Of a stretch of DNA of 32,000 nucleotides, positions 25,032 to 30,815 are shown in pieces (the first letter of the stretch is position 1; each line of letters begins with the position of its first letter). The stretch comes from Erysipelotrichaceae bacterium (GTDB lineage Bacteria; Bacillota_I; Bacilli_A; Erysipelotrichales; Erysipelotrichaceae). Both the position numbers and the translations under genes were made by a program. The notes beneath the pieces are model-generated. The model was not told the origin of the DNA. It did no database searches and worked only from the letters and a program-made list of their open reading frames with translations. The DNA is taken from contig OY760660.1 of NCBI GenBank assembly GCA_963663995.1, forward strand, positions 1,170,001 through 1,202,000. The letters are read 5' to 3'.

Positions 25032-28000
25032 CTATTCTTCGTTAGAATCTTCACGAGAATCGCGTAGCATTTCTGGTGGTAAGCTTTGAGCTTCTTCTTC
25101 CATGATTCGATTACGTTCATCACGCTCTTCCTTCATTTCAGCCGCCATTCTTTCAATGCGAACACTTGACTCACGATCAGCAAATGATCCTGTACCAGCA
25201 GGAATCTTCTTACCGATAATAACGTTTTCTTTTAGACCCATTAAGTGATCCACTTTACCTTTGATTGCAGCATCTGTAAGAACTTTAGTTGTTTCTTGGA
25301 AAGACGCAGCAGATAGGAATGAATCTGTTTCAACAGATGACTTAGAAATACCTAAGAGAACTGGTTTGAATTTTGCAGGACGTTTGCCACTTAATAGAGC
25401 TTTACGGTTAAGGTTAGTAATATTAGCTAGAGAGAGTTGGATACCCGCACTTAAGTGTGTATCTTGACCATCTGTAACAACCACTTTACGCATCATTTGT
25501 TTAACCATGACTTCGATGTGTTTGTCTGAGATTTCAATCCCTTGGCTTTGGTATACTTTCTTAACTTCTTTCATGATGTATTCTTGTACAGCATGAACGC
25601 CACCAACTTCTAAGAGTTCTTTTGGATCGATATGATCTTCAGTGAGTTTATCACCTGCTTCAATTTCGTACCCTTCTTTAATCCATGGACGGATATGTTG
25701 AGTCATAGAAGCAAAGTGTTCAACACTTTCTTTTTCGTTGGTAACAACAATCTTCATCAGCAAGTCTTTATTACCACGAGATTCTTGTTCTGTGGATTTA
25801 AAGGATTCTAAATCACGAATATTTTGGAATTTAGACTCTTCGTTACTGATAACAGAGAGTAGATATGAATAGATATTTGGGTCAACCCCTTCAATAGAAG
25901 TGATTGTTCCAGAGATTTTAGAAAGAAGTGCAGGTTTCTTAGGACGACGAGCTTCGAAAAGTTCTTCAACACGAGGTAAACCTTGTGTGATATCCCCACC
26001 GTCTCCACCAGCAACCCCACCAGTATGGAAGGTACGCATGGTTAATTGGGTACCAGGTTCACCAATGGATTGAGCAGCCATAATACCAACTGCTTCACCG
26101 ATTTCAACTTCTTTACCAGTCGCCATATTACGACCGTAACATTTCTTACATACACCATATTGTGAATCACAAGTGAATACATTACGGATAACCGCTGATT
26201 TAACACCAGCTTCTACAACAGATCTTGCTTGTGCTTCAGTGATGAGTGTATCCCCTTCAACAAGTACTTCACCTGTAATAGGATCGATAATATCATCTTT
26301 GAGTGTACGTCCGATTAAACGATCATAAATAGATTCGATAACAGTACCGGTCTTACGATCAACGATATCTGAAATCACTTCACCACGATCAGTTCCGCAA
26401 TCCTCTTCAGTGACCATAACATCTTGAGCAACATCAACTAAACGACGAGTTAAGTAACCAGACTCAGCAGTTTTTAGAGCCGTATCGGTTAGACCTTTAC
26501 GCACACCGTGAGTAGAAATAAAGAACTCAGACACGTTTAGACCATGTCTAAATGATGAGTAGATAGGGACTTCGAAGATTGAGGTGATATATTTACGTTC
26601 ACGTAAAGCCTCAGTCTTAACAGCATCTCGAATTTCAACAGTACTTGAGTCAGCTGCATGAGTGACATCGTTGTCCTTGATTTCAAGGAAACGGTTATAG
26701 CTTAGTTTATTGGAATCGATGAGTTTTTTAGCTAATTCGTAGAAACCATTTTCAAGTTCTAGATCATTCTTAGTGAGTTGATCTAATTCTTCTTGGCTTA
26801 AGTGTTTTAAGATACGTTCACTTTCAGCTTGGATGAGTTTCTTGGATTTCGCAATAAGTTCACGACGTTGATATTTCGCAATGAGCTCAGGTGTAATTTT
26901 TTCTTCTTCGATTAATCCATCAACAACTTGGTTAATTAAAGCCATATCTTTACCTTTTGCTTCAGCTAAGATTTGGTGTTGGATAGGACCAAGTAGTGGT
27001 GTAATTTCATCAGCACTTGAAACAAGCATTTCAATGATGATTGAACGATACTCTAGATTTTCCAAGAACGCTTCATCAACACGATTGTTTTGAACAAGTG
27101 AAGTTGCAGCTGCAGGAATTGTCTTACGCGTTAAGCTTTCAATATCAATGAATTCTTTTATCGTTTCAATGAGTGTATGATTACGGGATTCTAAGAAGCC
27201 AATTGTTTTCTCAATTAAGGACTTGATCAATTGGAACTGTTCTAAGTCATCAAGGGAGAAACGGTTACTATCAAGTAATAAATCAGATAGTTCTTTAATG
27301 GTTTCAGCTTTAAGTTTTTTGTCTTTAGCACCATCGAGTTGATCTTTTTCTTCGTCGCTTAAACGATCTAAGATCATTTCATCATTGGCTTTTAAACCAT
27401 CAATAATCACTTTTCTTAGTTCTGCACGGTCTAAAACATTTTGTGTTAAAGCTTCATTACCCATAAGTTCTTCAACCATTGGTTTGATTTCTTCAGCACG
27501 TTGTTTCTTACCTTTAGCACTTGCTAAGACAAGTTGATCATCTTCAGATAATAAGTTAACGATTTCTTCTGTTCCTAAATTTAAGTGTTCAGTTAGAAGA
27601 GCACGTTTTTCCTTGCGTAAATCACTTTCAAGTTTTTGTAGTTCGCTCATTGATACACGATTTTCATCGACAATTGCTTGAGATAAAGTATTGATGTATT
27701 CTTCGCGATTAGCTTTAAGTGTACGTAAGTTATCAACATCACGATTTGATGTGAGATTCTTGATGAATGGATTTTCTTTTTCAAGATGACGTTTGAGTAG
27801 TTCAGGAACACTCATCGCCATGTGTGCTTGATGGAGATGTTTGATATTTAAATCTTCGCCATTCATTAAGTTAAGCGCAAATTCTTTAAGTTCAGCATGA
27901 TTCTTAGATTTGTTAATCAATCTGAGTTGTTGTCTTTGTTCATTAGACAATACTTCAAGAATCATTTCAGTTTCACGCGCAAGAAGTTCCATCAAGGTTA

Positions 28001-30815
28001 AACGTAATTGACGAGTAATTTCTGCTTTGTGTAACTTTTCTTCACTGATACGATCTTCAGCAACTAAACGTTGAGCTAAAGCACGATAAGCTTCTGCTTT
28101 TTCTTTTGCACTTTCAATCGCTTTTAAAGATTTTGTTTCCGCTGCATTAACAGCTTTAAAGATTTCAGTTGAACCTTCATTTAAGAGGTCTAATACTAAG
28201 GCTTGTTTTTCTTTGTTGGATGTTGCTTTACGTAAGATTTCATCAAGACCTTCTTTTTTGCGACGGTCAATGAAACTTTCCGCAACATACAATAAGTATT
28301 CATCATATTCACTTGAATCTTCGATCGTATTTAAACGCATTCTTTCATCAGAAGGAATGTATTCATCTAAGTTGCCCCATTCGACAAGTTCTTTAACTTT
28401 ATCAACTAGTGGTTCTTTATTCTTAGTTACATCTTCAGATTCATATTGTTGAAGGATATCTCCGGTTGTCGCAGCTTTGAATGGTTTACCCATCAGACCA
28501 CGAGTACCCGCTAATTGGGTAAAGTGAGATGCATTACCACGGGCACCAGATATTTTCATCATATTAATTGGGTTTTTACGTGGAAGATGTGCTTCTAAGT
28601 CTTTTCCAATTTCAGATTTAATTCTGTCCCAAAGTAGGGTTACGTGACGTTCCCACTCACGTGGTGTTAAACGACCACGTTGACGTAGAGCCATCAACTC
28701 TGATTCTTTAATTTTTCCATCTTCAACCAATTTATTTGTGTTAGGTGAAACAACGATATCCGCTAAGGCAACCGTCATCCCCGCAACTGTGGAGTATTTA
28801 AATCCATTGTCTTTAATTTGGTCTAAGATTTGAGAAGTTCTAGAAGTACCATATCTTGCGAATACTTCAGAAATAATTGTTCCTAAATCTTTCTTTTTAA
28901 CATCACTGGATAATGGAAGAGCTTTAACCGCTTCTTTAACATTTTGACCAGGTGCTACAAAGTAACGTTGAGGAGTCGCAATAAAGTTTTCTTTAGTGAC
29001 TTCATTAACATATGGGAAATCACTTGGGAACATTTCATTTAAGATTAACTTACCAACAGTGGTAATTAGGAAACTTGCATTTTGTTCTGGTGTAAAAGCA
29101 TCTTTATGTAAAGATTTAGCTTTTACCGCAACTCTAGAATGTAAGTGAACTTGTTTAGCTTCATAAGCCATGATCGCTTCGTTTGTATCTCTAAAGACAC
29201 GCCCTTCGCTCTCACCAAATTGTTGCCATTTATCAGCTTCTTCATGATCACCTAAAGCTCTCATTAAAGCTGCTTTTTCAAAGAATTCATCAGCACTTTC
29301 TTCCATTGATAGGTAGAAGTTACCCATAACCATATCTTGAGAAGGAGTAACAATTGGTTTACCATCTTTTGGACCTAAAATGTTGTTTGAACCTAACATT
29401 AATACTTCAGCTTCAGCACGTGCTGATTCTGAAAGTGGAACGTGAACAGCCATTTGGTCACCATCGAAGTCAGCATTAAAAGCTGGTGTTACGAGTGGGT
29501 GAAGACGAATAGCACGTCCTTCAACAAGTTTAGGCATAAAGGCTTGGATACCAAGTCTATGTAGAGTAGGTGCACGGTTTAATAGAACTGGATGGTTTGC
29601 GATAACATCATCGACGATATCCCAAACTCGTTCATCCTGTCTTTCAATCAGTTTTTCAGCACTCTTAGGGTTTGATGCAATACCACGATAAACGATTTCA
29701 TTGATAACGAAAGGTTTGAAAAGTTGAATTGCCATTTCACGAGGAATACCACATTCAAACATCTTAAGATCTGGTCCAACAGCGATAACTGAACGACCTG
29801 AGAAGTCAACACGTTTACCAAGTAAGTTTTGACGGAAACGACCTTGTTTCCCTTTCAAACTATGGGAAAGAGATTTAAGAGCACGACCACCAGCACCTGT
29901 AACGGCTTTTGAACGACGTCCGTTGTCAATTAAAGCATCAACAGCTTCTTGTAACATACGTTTTTCGTTTTGAACGATAATTGCAGGCGTACCCATATCG
30001 ATGAGTTTACGTAAACGATTGTTACGAGTGATAACACGACGATAAAGGTCATTTAAATCGGAAGTCGCAAAACGACCACCATCTAGTTGTAACATTGGAC
30101 GTAAATCTGGTGGAATAACTGGAAGGATTGTAAGAACCATCCATTCTGGTTGATTTTCAGAATTACGGAATGCTTCAATGGTTTCTAAACGTTTGATTAA
30201 TTTCTTACGTTTGTCACCATGTGCATCTTTTAAGGATTCTAAAACATCTTTGTGATCTTGTTCAAGATCAACTCTTTCTAATAAATCAAGAACCGCTTCA
30301 GCACCTGTTTTAGCAGTAAATGAGCCGAAACCATAACGACGTGAGTAGTTACGATATTCTTGTTCAGAAAGAATTTGTTTAGATTGAAGTGGTGTTGTTC
30401 CTGGATCAATAACAACCCATGAAACGAAGTAGACAACTTCTTCTAAGTTTTTAGGAGTAATCCCAAGTAGTAATGACATACGACTTGGAATCCCACGAAG
30501 ATACCAAATGTGGGCAACAGGTGCAGCAAGTTCAATATGACCCATACGTTCACGACGAACGCTAGATTTTGTAACTTCAACACCGCATCGATCACAAACG
30601 ACACCTTTATAACGTACCTTTTTATACTTACCGCAGTAACATTCCCAGTCTTTTGATGGACCGAAAATCTTTTCGCAGAATAAACCATCACGTTCAGGTT
30701 TTTGACTACGGTAGTTAATCGTCTCAGGTTTTTTTACTTCACCATGAGACCATTCACGGATTTGATCAGGTGAGGCTAATCCGATTTGAATAGATGAGAA
30801 ATTGTTTATGCTCAT
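25032..30815 (-). CDS. rpoC: DNA-directed RNA polymerase subunit beta', 1927 aa, with a ~635-aa lineage-specific insertion
   Basis: Single uninterrupted frame with all beta' landmarks colinear: Zn finger [30 protein letters not shown] (res 447-455), bridge helix [30 protein letters not shown], and trigger loop [39 protein letters not shown] lies 8 nt upstream, 14 nt after the rpoB stop. Confidence 0.97.
26661..28160 (-). repeat. protein-level tandem array of ~8 degenerate 62-66 aa helical repeats inside the rpoC insertion
   Basis: Recurrent anchor (E-x-I-L-x-x)-L-S-x-E/D-E/D-x-x-Q-L-x-x-A-K-x-K-K-x-x-A-E-x-I-K-E-L...L-x-x-x-x-L-S. Clear copies: res 956 (LSNEQRQQL), 1089 ([23 protein letters not shown]), 1152 ([23 protein letters not shown]) and 1339 (LSQEELDQL). 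Weaker copies: res 1021 ([10 protein letters not shown]), 1275 ([16 protein letters not shown]) and ~890. Too diverged to show as DNA repeats. Confidence 0.7.

What the first reader, a model, noticed from the sequence alone, without database searches (positions are those of the whole stretch)
26661..28160. The beta' insertion is a tandem array of a ~64-aa repeat with an LSxEExxQL...AKxKKxxAExIK signature
Reading the insertion by eye shows a periodic module. Anchors fall at residues 956, 1021, 1089, 1152, 1275 and 1339, giving spacings of 65, 68, 63, 123 and 64 aa. The 123-aa gap contains a half-degenerate copy. Examples: [41 protein letters not shown]; [42 protein letters not shown]; [46 protein letters not shown]; [44 protein letters not shown]. 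Each copy therefore looks like a 2-3 helix unit, amplified in situ and then diverged, with no residual DNA-level repeat. I do not recognise the module as a named domain. Repeat arrays of this type usually form extended solenoid or rod scaffolds, which would be an unusual appendage on a catalytic RNAP subunit.
Basis: seen in the sequence. Interest (0 to 1): 0.62.

Follow-up and report, generated by a model that had tools for sequence, protein, structure and literature searches.

The report
Helical repeat insertion in RNA polymerase
The largest RNA polymerase subunit of one uncultured gut-type Firmicute genus carries a 634-residue block of about nine tandem copies of a previously undescribed ~65-residue helical module, inserted next to the catalytic bridge helix at a site and with a fold not reported for bacterial polymerase insertions.

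Summary
Observation confirmed and extended. rpoC (window 25032-30815, minus strand, 1927 aa) has a 634-aa insertion (residues 779-1412). It sits in the F-loop, between the Pro that aligns with E. coli beta' P750 and the bridge helix.

The insertion is a real tandem array. Self-alignment scores of 284, 206 and 182 compare with a shuffle maximum of 127. Profile self-comparison gives E = 6e-16 at lag ~69. There are seven clear copies and two degenerate ones (U1-U9, residues 813-1395).

A two-unit AlphaFold2 model is very confident (pLDDT 94.8, pTM 0.83) and all-alpha. Pfam, PDB sequences, PDB folds and viral folds gave no significant match. In 1.84 billion representative proteins the unit profile found only fragments of this same beta'.

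The insertion is confined to one Erysipelotrichaceae genus:
- Class A: exactly 634 aa in 15 sequences at 52-92% identity, with no indels.
- Class B (sister clade): 526 aa, with the periodicity lost.
- No other large insertion at this site in 249 class-level genomes.

dN/dS is 0.11, so the insertion is under purifying selection. There is no copy-number variation. Function is inferred only: a rigid acidic helical arm anchored on the bridge-helix cap, analogous to Si3. I class it as a new variant of a known kind (a lineage-specific RNAP insertion).

The parts
25032..30815 (-). rpoC, RNA polymerase beta' subunit, 1927 aa (P0001)
   Evidence: ORF and translation. Pfam Rpb1 domains 1-5 match residues 4-783 and 1425-1795. 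TIGR02386 scores 1639 bits.
28482..28508 (-). N-terminal F-loop flank GTRGLMGKP (residues 770-778). The final Pro aligns with E. coli beta' P750. T771 replaces the otherwise conserved Met.
   Evidence: Alignment to solved beta' chains. P750 is an F-loop residue (PMC3959191). The M->T/I change is present in all 15 insertion-bearing sequences and in none of the 15 insertion-less relatives.
26580..28481 (-). Lineage-specific insertion, residues 779-1412 (634 aa). All-alpha, acidic (net charge -31, pI 5.0).
   Evidence: Not covered by any beta' model. Absent from relatives outside the genus. AF2 predicts an all-helical structure. Charge. dN/dS 0.11.
28380..28481 (-). N-terminal linker, residues 779-812 ([25 protein letters not shown]...). 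Nearly invariant among class A. Low pLDDT when modelled in isolation.
   Evidence: Mean column identity 0.89 among 15 orthologues. Invariant columns listed. pLDDT 35-40.
28173..28379 (-). Repeat slot U1 (residues 813-881), degenerate
   Evidence: Weak HMM match: E 3.8 in the window protein and 1e-3 to 3e-3 in orthologues. Included in the lag-68 and lag-202 self-alignments.
27972..28172 (-). Repeat unit U2 (residues 882-948)
   Evidence: Found by an HMM that did not contain it, 8e-8. After iteration 1.9e-17.
27774..27971 (-).
   Evidence: HMM 7e-23.
27573..27773 (-).
   Evidence: Found by an HMM that did not contain it, 9e-5. After iteration 1.1e-15.
27384..27572 (-).
   Evidence: HMM 3e-24. 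First unit of the two-unit AF2 model, pLDDT 94.8.
27192..27383 (-).
   Evidence: HMM 1.2e-21. Second unit of the two-unit AF2 model.
27015..27191 (-). Repeat slot U7 (residues 1209-1267), degenerate
   Evidence: Only the C-terminal half matches the unit HMM, E 0.004.
26823..27014 (-).
   Evidence: Found by an HMM that did not contain it, 3e-3. After iteration 1.8e-16.
26631..26822 (-).
   Evidence: HMM 4.8e-20.
26580..26630 (-). C-terminal linker, residues 1396-1412 (...[17 protein letters not shown]). The most conserved part of the insertion.
   Evidence: Mean column identity 0.96 among 15 orthologues.
26538..26579 (-). C-terminal F-loop flank and start of the bridge-helix region, [14 protein letters not shown] (residues 1413-1426). 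H1424 replaces the otherwise conserved Glu of FREGL.
   Evidence: Alignment to solved beta' chains. E->H/K occurs only in insertion-bearing sequences.

Best explanation
SHOWN. The feature is a lineage-specific insertion domain of RNA polymerase beta'. It arose once, in the ancestor of one uncultured Erysipelotrichaceae genus. It formed by in-situ tandem amplification of a ~65-residue module: a 4-residue helical turn, a 9-residue helix starting with an 'LSxEE'-type motif, a short basic and often Gly-containing turn, a 16-residue helix, and an 18-23-residue helix. There are nine slots, seven clear and two degenerate, flanked by two nearly invariant linkers. The whole block is spliced into the tip of the F-loop, between the equivalents of E. 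coli P750 and I754, directly before the bridge helix. It is translated in frame as part of beta'. It is under purifying selection and its length is fixed exactly. It is not an intein, not a mobile element and not an assembly artefact.

INFERRED (my estimate ~35-40% for this specific mechanism). Consecutive units pack in a defined geometry, so the array forms a rigid, acidic alpha-helical arm. Both ends meet at one loop, so the arm must curve or fold back on itself. It projects from the bridge-helix cap on the secondary-channel side of the enzyme. There it would act like Si3 of E. coli or cyanobacteria, as a surface-lying docking or shielding platform. Its conserved linkers, together with two co-varying substitutions at otherwise conserved F-loop positions (M->T/I and E->H/K), would couple it to the F-loop, bridge-helix and trigger-loop motions that set catalysis and pausing.
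For: - Repeat statistics.
- Position in the F-loop. P750 is an F-loop residue and the F-loop modulates trigger-loop folding (PMC3959191). The F-loop is part of the bridge-helix cap that controls bridge-helix hinge motion, and the Sal-binding pocket in that cap opens onto the secondary channel (PMC4029172).
- Single origin: insertion-bearing sequences form a clade with 100/100 support on the core-only tree. The insertion is absent from four other genera of the family and 16 genomes of the order, and from 249 class-level genomes, where no junction gap exceeds ~17 aa and no rpoC ORF exceeds 1450 aa.
- Selection: dN/dS 0.11 at dS 0.73, against 0.04-0.06 for the core. All 15 class A sequences are 634 aa with no indel at 52-92% identity.
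- Structure: all-alpha. The two-unit model has pLDDT 94.8 and pTM 0.83, so the inter-unit geometry is defined.
- Linkers are the most conserved parts, 0.89 and 0.96 mean column identity.
- Flank substitutions co-vary perfectly with the insertion.
- The insertion is acidic, net charge -31.
- GreA is retained in all 41 relatives, so the secondary channel presumably stays usable.
- Precedent: Si3 is a 645-residue repeat insertion that lies along the RNAP surface and moves with the trigger loop (PMC10895346).
Against: - There is no direct evidence on where the array lies on the enzyme.
- The full-length model has only moderate global confidence (pTM 0.42).
- No partner was identified.
- Presence or absence of GreA and the delta subunit does not track the insertion.
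- In the sister clade (class B) the insertion has lost detectable periodicity and 108 residues. The regular array is therefore not indispensable for whatever the insertion does.
- The co-varying flank substitutions are phylogenetically a single event.
Confidence: 0.72

Rival explanations
1. Neutral ballast. A slippage- or duplication-generated low-complexity helical expansion that is merely tolerated at a surface loop and has no function of its own.
For: - The insertion evolves 2-3 times faster than the core.
- Class B has degenerated beyond recognisable periodicity.
- Composition is rich in E, K, L, D and R, together 49%.
- It is confined to one genus.
Against: - dN/dS is 0.11.
- There is not one indel in 634 columns across 15 sequences down to 52% identity. 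Class B length is also nearly fixed: 526 aa, with one sequence at 524 aa.
- The fold prediction is highly confident.
- The linkers are nearly invariant.
Neutral helical filler would be expected to vary in length.
Confidence: 0.1
2. A degenerate tandem helix-turn-helix array that binds nucleic acid (downstream DNA or RNA). Each unit would use helix 2, the basic Gly-containing turn and helix 3 as an HTH.
For: - The only plausible non-beta' hit of the unit profile in 1.84 billion proteins is P0017. P0017 is a tandem HTH_23 array with a ~60-aa period and a shared 'L(I/V)xxxR(I/V)(S/T)xxx(I/L)' motif (E 1.4e-7 over 5 stretches).
- hhalign of the unit profile against P0017 gives E 5e-4.
- The geometry of a 9-residue helix, a 3-residue turn and a long helix is HTH-like.
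- The turn is consistently basic, e.g. AKGKKQ and AKDKKLK.
Against: - hhalign probability is only 32%.
- No unit hits any HTH Pfam model, even at E <= 10.
- Foldseek found no HTH protein.
- The insertion is strongly acidic, net charge -31 and pI 5.0.
- The conserved positions are hydrophobic-core and helix-capping residues, not a recognition surface.
Confidence: 0.1
3. An intein, a mobile-element remnant, a gene fusion or an assembly artefact, rather than a genuine part of beta'.
For: It is large, lineage-restricted and slightly lower in GC (0.34 against ~0.39).
Against: - The reading frame is continuous.
- The same insertion appears in at least 15 independent assemblies from different studies.
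- There are no intein junction residues: the insert starts with Phe, ends with Ser and is followed by Ile. There is no Hint or endonuclease Pfam hit.
- There are no transposase or terminal repeats.
- There is no second copy of the module elsewhere in the genome and no viral fold match.
Confidence: 0.02

Closest known systems
Si3 (beta'i6) of E. coli and cyanobacterial RNA polymerase
   Same: - A large lineage-specific insertion built from repeats of one module.
- Spliced into a mobile element of the active-centre machinery of beta'.
- Comparable in size: cyanobacterial Si3 is 645 residues and is called the largest known insertion (PMC10895346). This one is 634.
- Translated as part of beta'.
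   Different: - Si3 lies in the trigger loop. This insertion lies in the F-loop before the bridge helix.
- Si3 is made of beta-rich SBHM/HABAS domains. This insertion is all-alpha.
- Si3 is found across Gram-negative phyla. This insertion is in a single Firmicute genus.
Catalogued bacterial beta' lineage-specific insertions (HABAS, BEAN and sLC domains at seven sites; Alvarez-Carreno et al. 2024, PMC11515920)
   Same: The same phenomenon: a domain inserted into a loop between conserved beta' segments and inherited vertically within a lineage.
   Different: - None of the seven catalogued sites is in beta'-uD4, the domain that holds the funnel, F-loop and bridge helix.
- The catalogued domains are HABAS, BEAN or sLC, not helical repeats.
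- Firmicute RNAPs are described as having only one major insert, beta-In5 (bioRxiv 10.1101/2021.06.06.447298).
Tandem HTH_23 (homeodomain-like) arrays such as metagenomic protein P0017
   Same: A ~60-65-aa period, three helices per unit, and a shared motif after the third helix.
   Different: No Pfam HTH model matches any unit. The profile-profile probability is only 32%. The insertion is acidic.

Membership tests
Bacterial RNA polymerase beta' (rpoC, TIGR02386) | Rpb1 domains 1-5 in order, scoring above the curated cut-offs | tested here: met
   Pfam PF04997, PF00623, PF04983, PF05000 and PF04998 are all above cut-off. TIGR02386 scores 1639 bits against a cut-off of 963.
Bacterial RNA polymerase beta' (rpoC, TIGR02386) | Catalytic NADFDGD motif and the bridge-helix sequence | tested here: met
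   The translation shows '[14 protein letters not shown]' and '[35 protein letters not shown]'. It aligns to solved beta' chains.
SBHM/HABAS insertions (beta'i2, beta'i6/Si3) | Beta-sandwich/barrel hybrid fold with a four-stranded sheet | tested here: not met
   AF2 predicts only helices, with no strand, in both the 634-aa model and the two-unit model.
SBHM/HABAS insertions (beta'i2, beta'i6/Si3) | Located in the trigger loop (i6) or between the N-terminal clamp regions (i2) | tested here: not met
   The insertion follows the Pro equivalent to E. coli P750 in the F-loop.
BEAN/BBM2 insertions | Two antiparallel bracket-like beta elements (CATH 3.90.105.10) | tested here: not met
   The prediction is all-alpha. 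There is no Foldseek match to RNAP insertion domains.
Inteins | Cys/Ser/Thr as the first residue, His-Asn at the end followed by Cys/Ser/Thr, and a Hint domain | tested here: not met
   The insert begins with F779, ends ...YITS1412 and is followed by I1413. There is no Hint or LAGLIDADG Pfam hit.
Named alpha-helical repeat families (HEAT, ARM, TPR, Sel1, PPR, spectrin, annexin) | A match to the family profile, or the family's period and fold | tested here: not met
   No Pfam hit on the insertion, the consensus or 42 units at E <= 10. The ~65-aa period differs from 30-47 aa (HEAT, ARM, TPR, Sel1, PPR) and ~106 aa (spectrin), as I recall those periods. Foldseek against the PDB gives a best E of 1.7 and TM <= 0.27.
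HTH_23 / homeodomain-like HTH | Profile match above threshold, and tri-helical HTH geometry | tested here: inconclusive
   No Pfam HTH hit. hhalign against the HTH_23 array P0017 gives probability 32% and E 5e-4. The geometry could not be inspected.

The most novel reading that the evidence does not exclude
The array is a new alpha-helical repeat fold with no relative outside this genus. It forms a fixed-length arm anchored directly on the bridge-helix cap. This would give the polymerase a second Si3-like regulatory appendage that acts through the F-loop rather than the trigger loop. For example, it could gate the secondary channel, or transmit binding of a lineage-specific factor to translocation and pausing.
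Probability: 0.3. Interest if true: 0.8.

Novelty: new variant of a known kind. Interest (0 to 1): 0.66.

Why it matters
Lineage-specific insertions are the main way bacterial RNA polymerases differ. The few that have been studied (Si3, beta-i9, beta-In5) turned out to be regulatory or factor-docking modules.

This insertion differs from the catalogued ones in four ways:
- It is about as large as the largest known insertion (634 against 645 residues).
- It is built from a module with no detectable relative in sequence or structure databases.
- It is all-helical, whereas catalogued beta' insertions are beta-rich.
- It sits in the F-loop, an element that controls bridge-helix and trigger-loop dynamics and lines antibiotic pockets (CBR, salinamide). 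It sits next to a residue (P750) whose substitution alters translocation and pausing.

It occurs in Firmicutes, whose polymerases are regarded as the minimal ones. It shows that the bridge-helix cap can tolerate a 70-kDa insertion. It also offers a natural system for asking how the F-loop communicates with the active site. The contrast between class A and class B is a natural experiment on how such domains decay.

Tried and rejected
- blastp self-comparison returned only the identity hit. I replaced it with my own Smith-Waterman plus shuffles.
- A 3x3 super-repeat was suggested by the best self-alignment at lag 202. A unit-by-unit hhalign matrix did not clearly bear it out: mean score 19.8 at lag 3, 18.9 at lag 2 and 14.6 at lag 1. 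I treat it as tentative only.
- Replacement of secondary-channel or accessory factors was tested and not supported. GreA is present in all 41 relatives. Delta-like HARE-HTH genes are present with or without the insertion.
- A donor gene in the same genome was sought and not found.
- Apparent split matches in other families (f4, f7, f21) turned out to be gaps of only ~16 aa.
- The eukaryotic hit P0016 is a spurious sum over VWA repeats.
- Pfam, PDB HMM, and Foldseek against PDB and BFVD gave nothing significant.
- The Lane & Darst 2010 papers are not held. The insertion catalogue was therefore taken from PMC11515920 and PMC2939025.

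
Full report
**What is there**

The finding lies inside the ORF at window 25032-30815 on the minus strand. Its 1927-aa product (P0001) is the RNA polymerase beta' subunit. Pfam Rpb1 domains 1-4 cover residues 4-783 and domain 5 covers 1425-1795. TIGR02386 scores 1639 bits. No model covers residues ~790-1412.

Alignment with relatives puts the boundaries at residues 779-1412, which is 634 aa and corresponds to window 26580-28481. 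The insertion sits between '...[12 protein letters not shown]' and '[25 protein letters not shown]...'.

**Where in the enzyme**

The flanks align with solved beta' chains of Bacillus subtilis and E. coli, with only three residues at the junction. The Pro before the insertion is the Pro of the E. coli motif GLMAKP. I counted from the E. coli motif as I recall it. The count is consistent with L770, F773 and H777 as named in PMC3959191. On that count the Pro is P750 and the sequence after the insertion resumes at the equivalent of I754.

P750 is an F-loop residue, and P750L alters translocation and pausing. The F-loop is described as an N-terminal extension of the bridge helix that modulates trigger-loop folding (PMC3959191). 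It is part of the 'bridge-helix cap'. The salinamide-binding pocket within that cap opens onto the secondary channel (PMC4029172).

**Is the repeat real?**

Yes.
- Smith-Waterman self-comparison with the diagonal excluded gives 284 (lag 202, 339 columns, 101 identities), 206 (lag 68) and 182 (lag 136).
- One hundred global shuffles give mean 76.5, sd 13 and max 109. One hundred shuffles within 30-aa windows give mean 90, sd 14 and max 127.
- A profile of 15 orthologous insertions compared with itself gives off-diagonal hits at lag ~69 (E 6e-16, probability 98.6%) and lag ~200 (E 1e-13).
It also finds two weak slots. After one iteration seven units score 1e-15 to 1e-22.

The array has nine slots, U1-U9, spanning residues 813-1395. 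U1 and U7 are degenerate. The array is flanked by a 34-aa N-linker and a 17-aa C-linker. The consensus unit is SEEILELLSAEEIKQLKEIKKKKKAEELKALAEKLIDENRLSEEKLQKAELRKVIVEKLKSEL.

The conserved positions are mostly hydrophobic, plus Ser/Thr-x-x-Glu motifs at helix starts. From general knowledge of helix N-capping boxes, I read the 'LSxEE' signature as structural rather than as a binding site.

A higher-order three-unit repeat is suggested by the lag-202 alignment. A unit-by-unit profile matrix does not single it out. At the DNA level no tandem repeat remains.

**Structure**

AlphaFold2 on the 634-aa insertion with nine orthologues gives an all-helical model of moderate confidence (mean pLDDT 71, pTM 0.42). 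The two linkers score below 50.

A two-unit segment (U5-U6) was modelled with an alignment of 45 orthologous and paralogous unit pairs. It gives pLDDT 94.8 and pTM 0.83. Each unit has a 4-residue helical turn and helices of 9, 16-17 and 18-20 residues. The high pTM implies a defined packing between consecutive units, not beads on a string.

Searches for relatives of the module found nothing significant:
- Foldseek with either model against the PDB: best E 2.6 and 1.7, TM <= 0.27.
- Foldseek against viral predicted structures: best E 1.4.
- A PDB sequence search with the unit profile: best E 0.08.
- Pfam on the insertion, the consensus and 42 single units: nothing.

**Distribution**

Named records that hold the insertion are all MAGs labelled Erysipelotrichaceae bacterium. 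Three classes appear among 41 relatives:
- Class A: nine genomes of the window's genus, beta' of 1927-1928 aa.
- Class B: five genomes of the same genus, ORFs of 1799-1803 aa. A sixth copy is broken.
- No insertion: all other genera, 1225-1285 aa, with only 15-16 residues (same family) or 6 residues (rest of the order) at the loop.

Fifteen class A sequences, including six from the 5.8-billion-protein collection, are each exactly 634 aa across the insertion. They align without a single gap at 52-92% identity.

Class B insertions are 526 aa, with one of 524 aa. They show no significant internal repeat. They match the class A profile only weakly (E 0.009), with one recognisable unit (3e-5). A few collinear motifs remain: NPFI, LSDxEK and AFYxxAxKL.

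A core-only tree places all insertion-bearing sequences in one clade (100/100), with class B monophyletic (100/100). Class A forms two lineages in an unresolved trichotomy with class B. This indicates one gain, followed by remodelling in the class B lineage.

I also searched 249 class-level genomes with the fused flanks. No other rpoC ORF exceeds 1450 aa. The other split matches have gaps of only ~16 aa.

The unit profile searched against 1.84 billion representative proteins returned four hits:
- Two are fragments of class A beta'.
- One is a spurious eukaryotic VWA-repeat protein.
- One is a tandem HTH_23 array (P0017).

The window's own genome holds no other copy of the module.

**Selection and other properties**

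Against the closest relative (dS 0.73), dN/dS is 0.11 for the insertion and 0.04-0.06 for the flanking core. The insertion is acidic, with net charge -31 and pI 5.0. The rest of beta' has net charge -4.

The most conserved parts are the linkers, with mean column identity 0.89 and 0.96 against 0.71-0.82 for the units. This holds even though AF2 cannot place the linkers in isolation. That pattern is what would be expected if they pack against the enzyme core.

All 15 insertion-bearing sequences carry T or I for the Met of QLAGMRGLM. They also carry H or K for the Glu of FREGL. All insertion-less relatives in which the motif was matched keep Met and Glu. This co-variation is perfect, but phylogenetically it is a single event.

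**Interpretation**

The anatomy and evolutionary behaviour are those of a lineage-specific insertion domain of RNAP, not of an intein, a mobile element or an artefact:
- The frame is continuous.
- There are no splice-junction residues and no Hint domain.
- The insertion is present in many independent assemblies.

Three features distinguish it from the known catalogue.
1. Site. The seven catalogued beta' insertion sites do not include the domain that holds the F-loop and bridge helix (PMC11515920).
2. Fold. It is all-alpha rather than HABAS/SBHM, BEAN or sLC.
3. Size. At 634 aa it is close to the 645-residue cyanobacterial Si3, which is called the largest known insertion (PMC10895346). It occurs in a phylum whose polymerases are described as the smallest, with a single major insert in beta.

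Function is inferred, not shown. The exact length conservation, the confident inter-unit geometry, the conserved linkers and the altered F-loop flanks all point one way. They suggest a rigid helical arm anchored on the bridge-helix cap that works by analogy with Si3, as a platform or shield coupled to active-centre motions. Because both ends meet at one loop, the array must curve or fold back. This could not be examined.

GreA and a delta-like protein are retained whether or not the insertion is present. I therefore found no sign that the insertion replaces a known factor.

The HTH-array idea rests on one weak profile match and is disfavoured by the acidic charge. The neutral-filler idea is disfavoured by dN/dS and the absence of indels. 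The decay of periodicity in class B shows, however, that the regular array itself is not essential.

**Limits**

- No coordinates of the models could be inspected.
- No complex was modelled.
- The Lane & Darst 2010 catalogues were not available.
- The organism is uncultured.

Noticed in passing
window 28503-28505 (T771) and 26544-26546 (H1424): Two otherwise conserved F-loop positions are substituted only in insertion-bearing beta'. The Met of QLAGMRGLM becomes T (class A) or I (class B). The Glu of FREGL becomes H or K. All insertion-less relatives in which the motif was matched keep Met and Glu.
   Followed up: partly
L024 (G006:C4:387813-394070): A class-B-like rpoC in one same-genus genome is split into at least three ORFs, with one TGA and one TAA inside the match. 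This could be an assembly error, a pseudogene or a naturally split beta'.
   Followed up: no
L025-L028 and L049-L058, at the F-loop tip: Other genera of the same family carry a 15-16-aa extension at the same loop, where the rest of the order has 6 aa. Genomes of three other families of the class (f4, f7, f21) also show a ~16-aa gap at this junction. This loop appears to be a recurrent site of small expansions.
   Followed up: partly
P0017 (metagenomic protein, 361 aa): A protein made of about five or six tandem HTH_23 domains with a ~60-aa period. It carries a 'LIxxGRITxxEI' motif that weakly resembles the end of helix 3 of the beta' module.
   Followed up: partly
window ~25755-25880 (beta' residues ~1646-1687): A ~40-residue stretch downstream of the trigger loop does not align with any relative outside the genus. 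Their matches stop at ~1641-1650 and resume at ~1687. It is a second, small lineage-variable segment of beta'.
   Followed up: no
If so, this lineage's polymerase has accumulated insertions in both large subunits.
   Followed up: no
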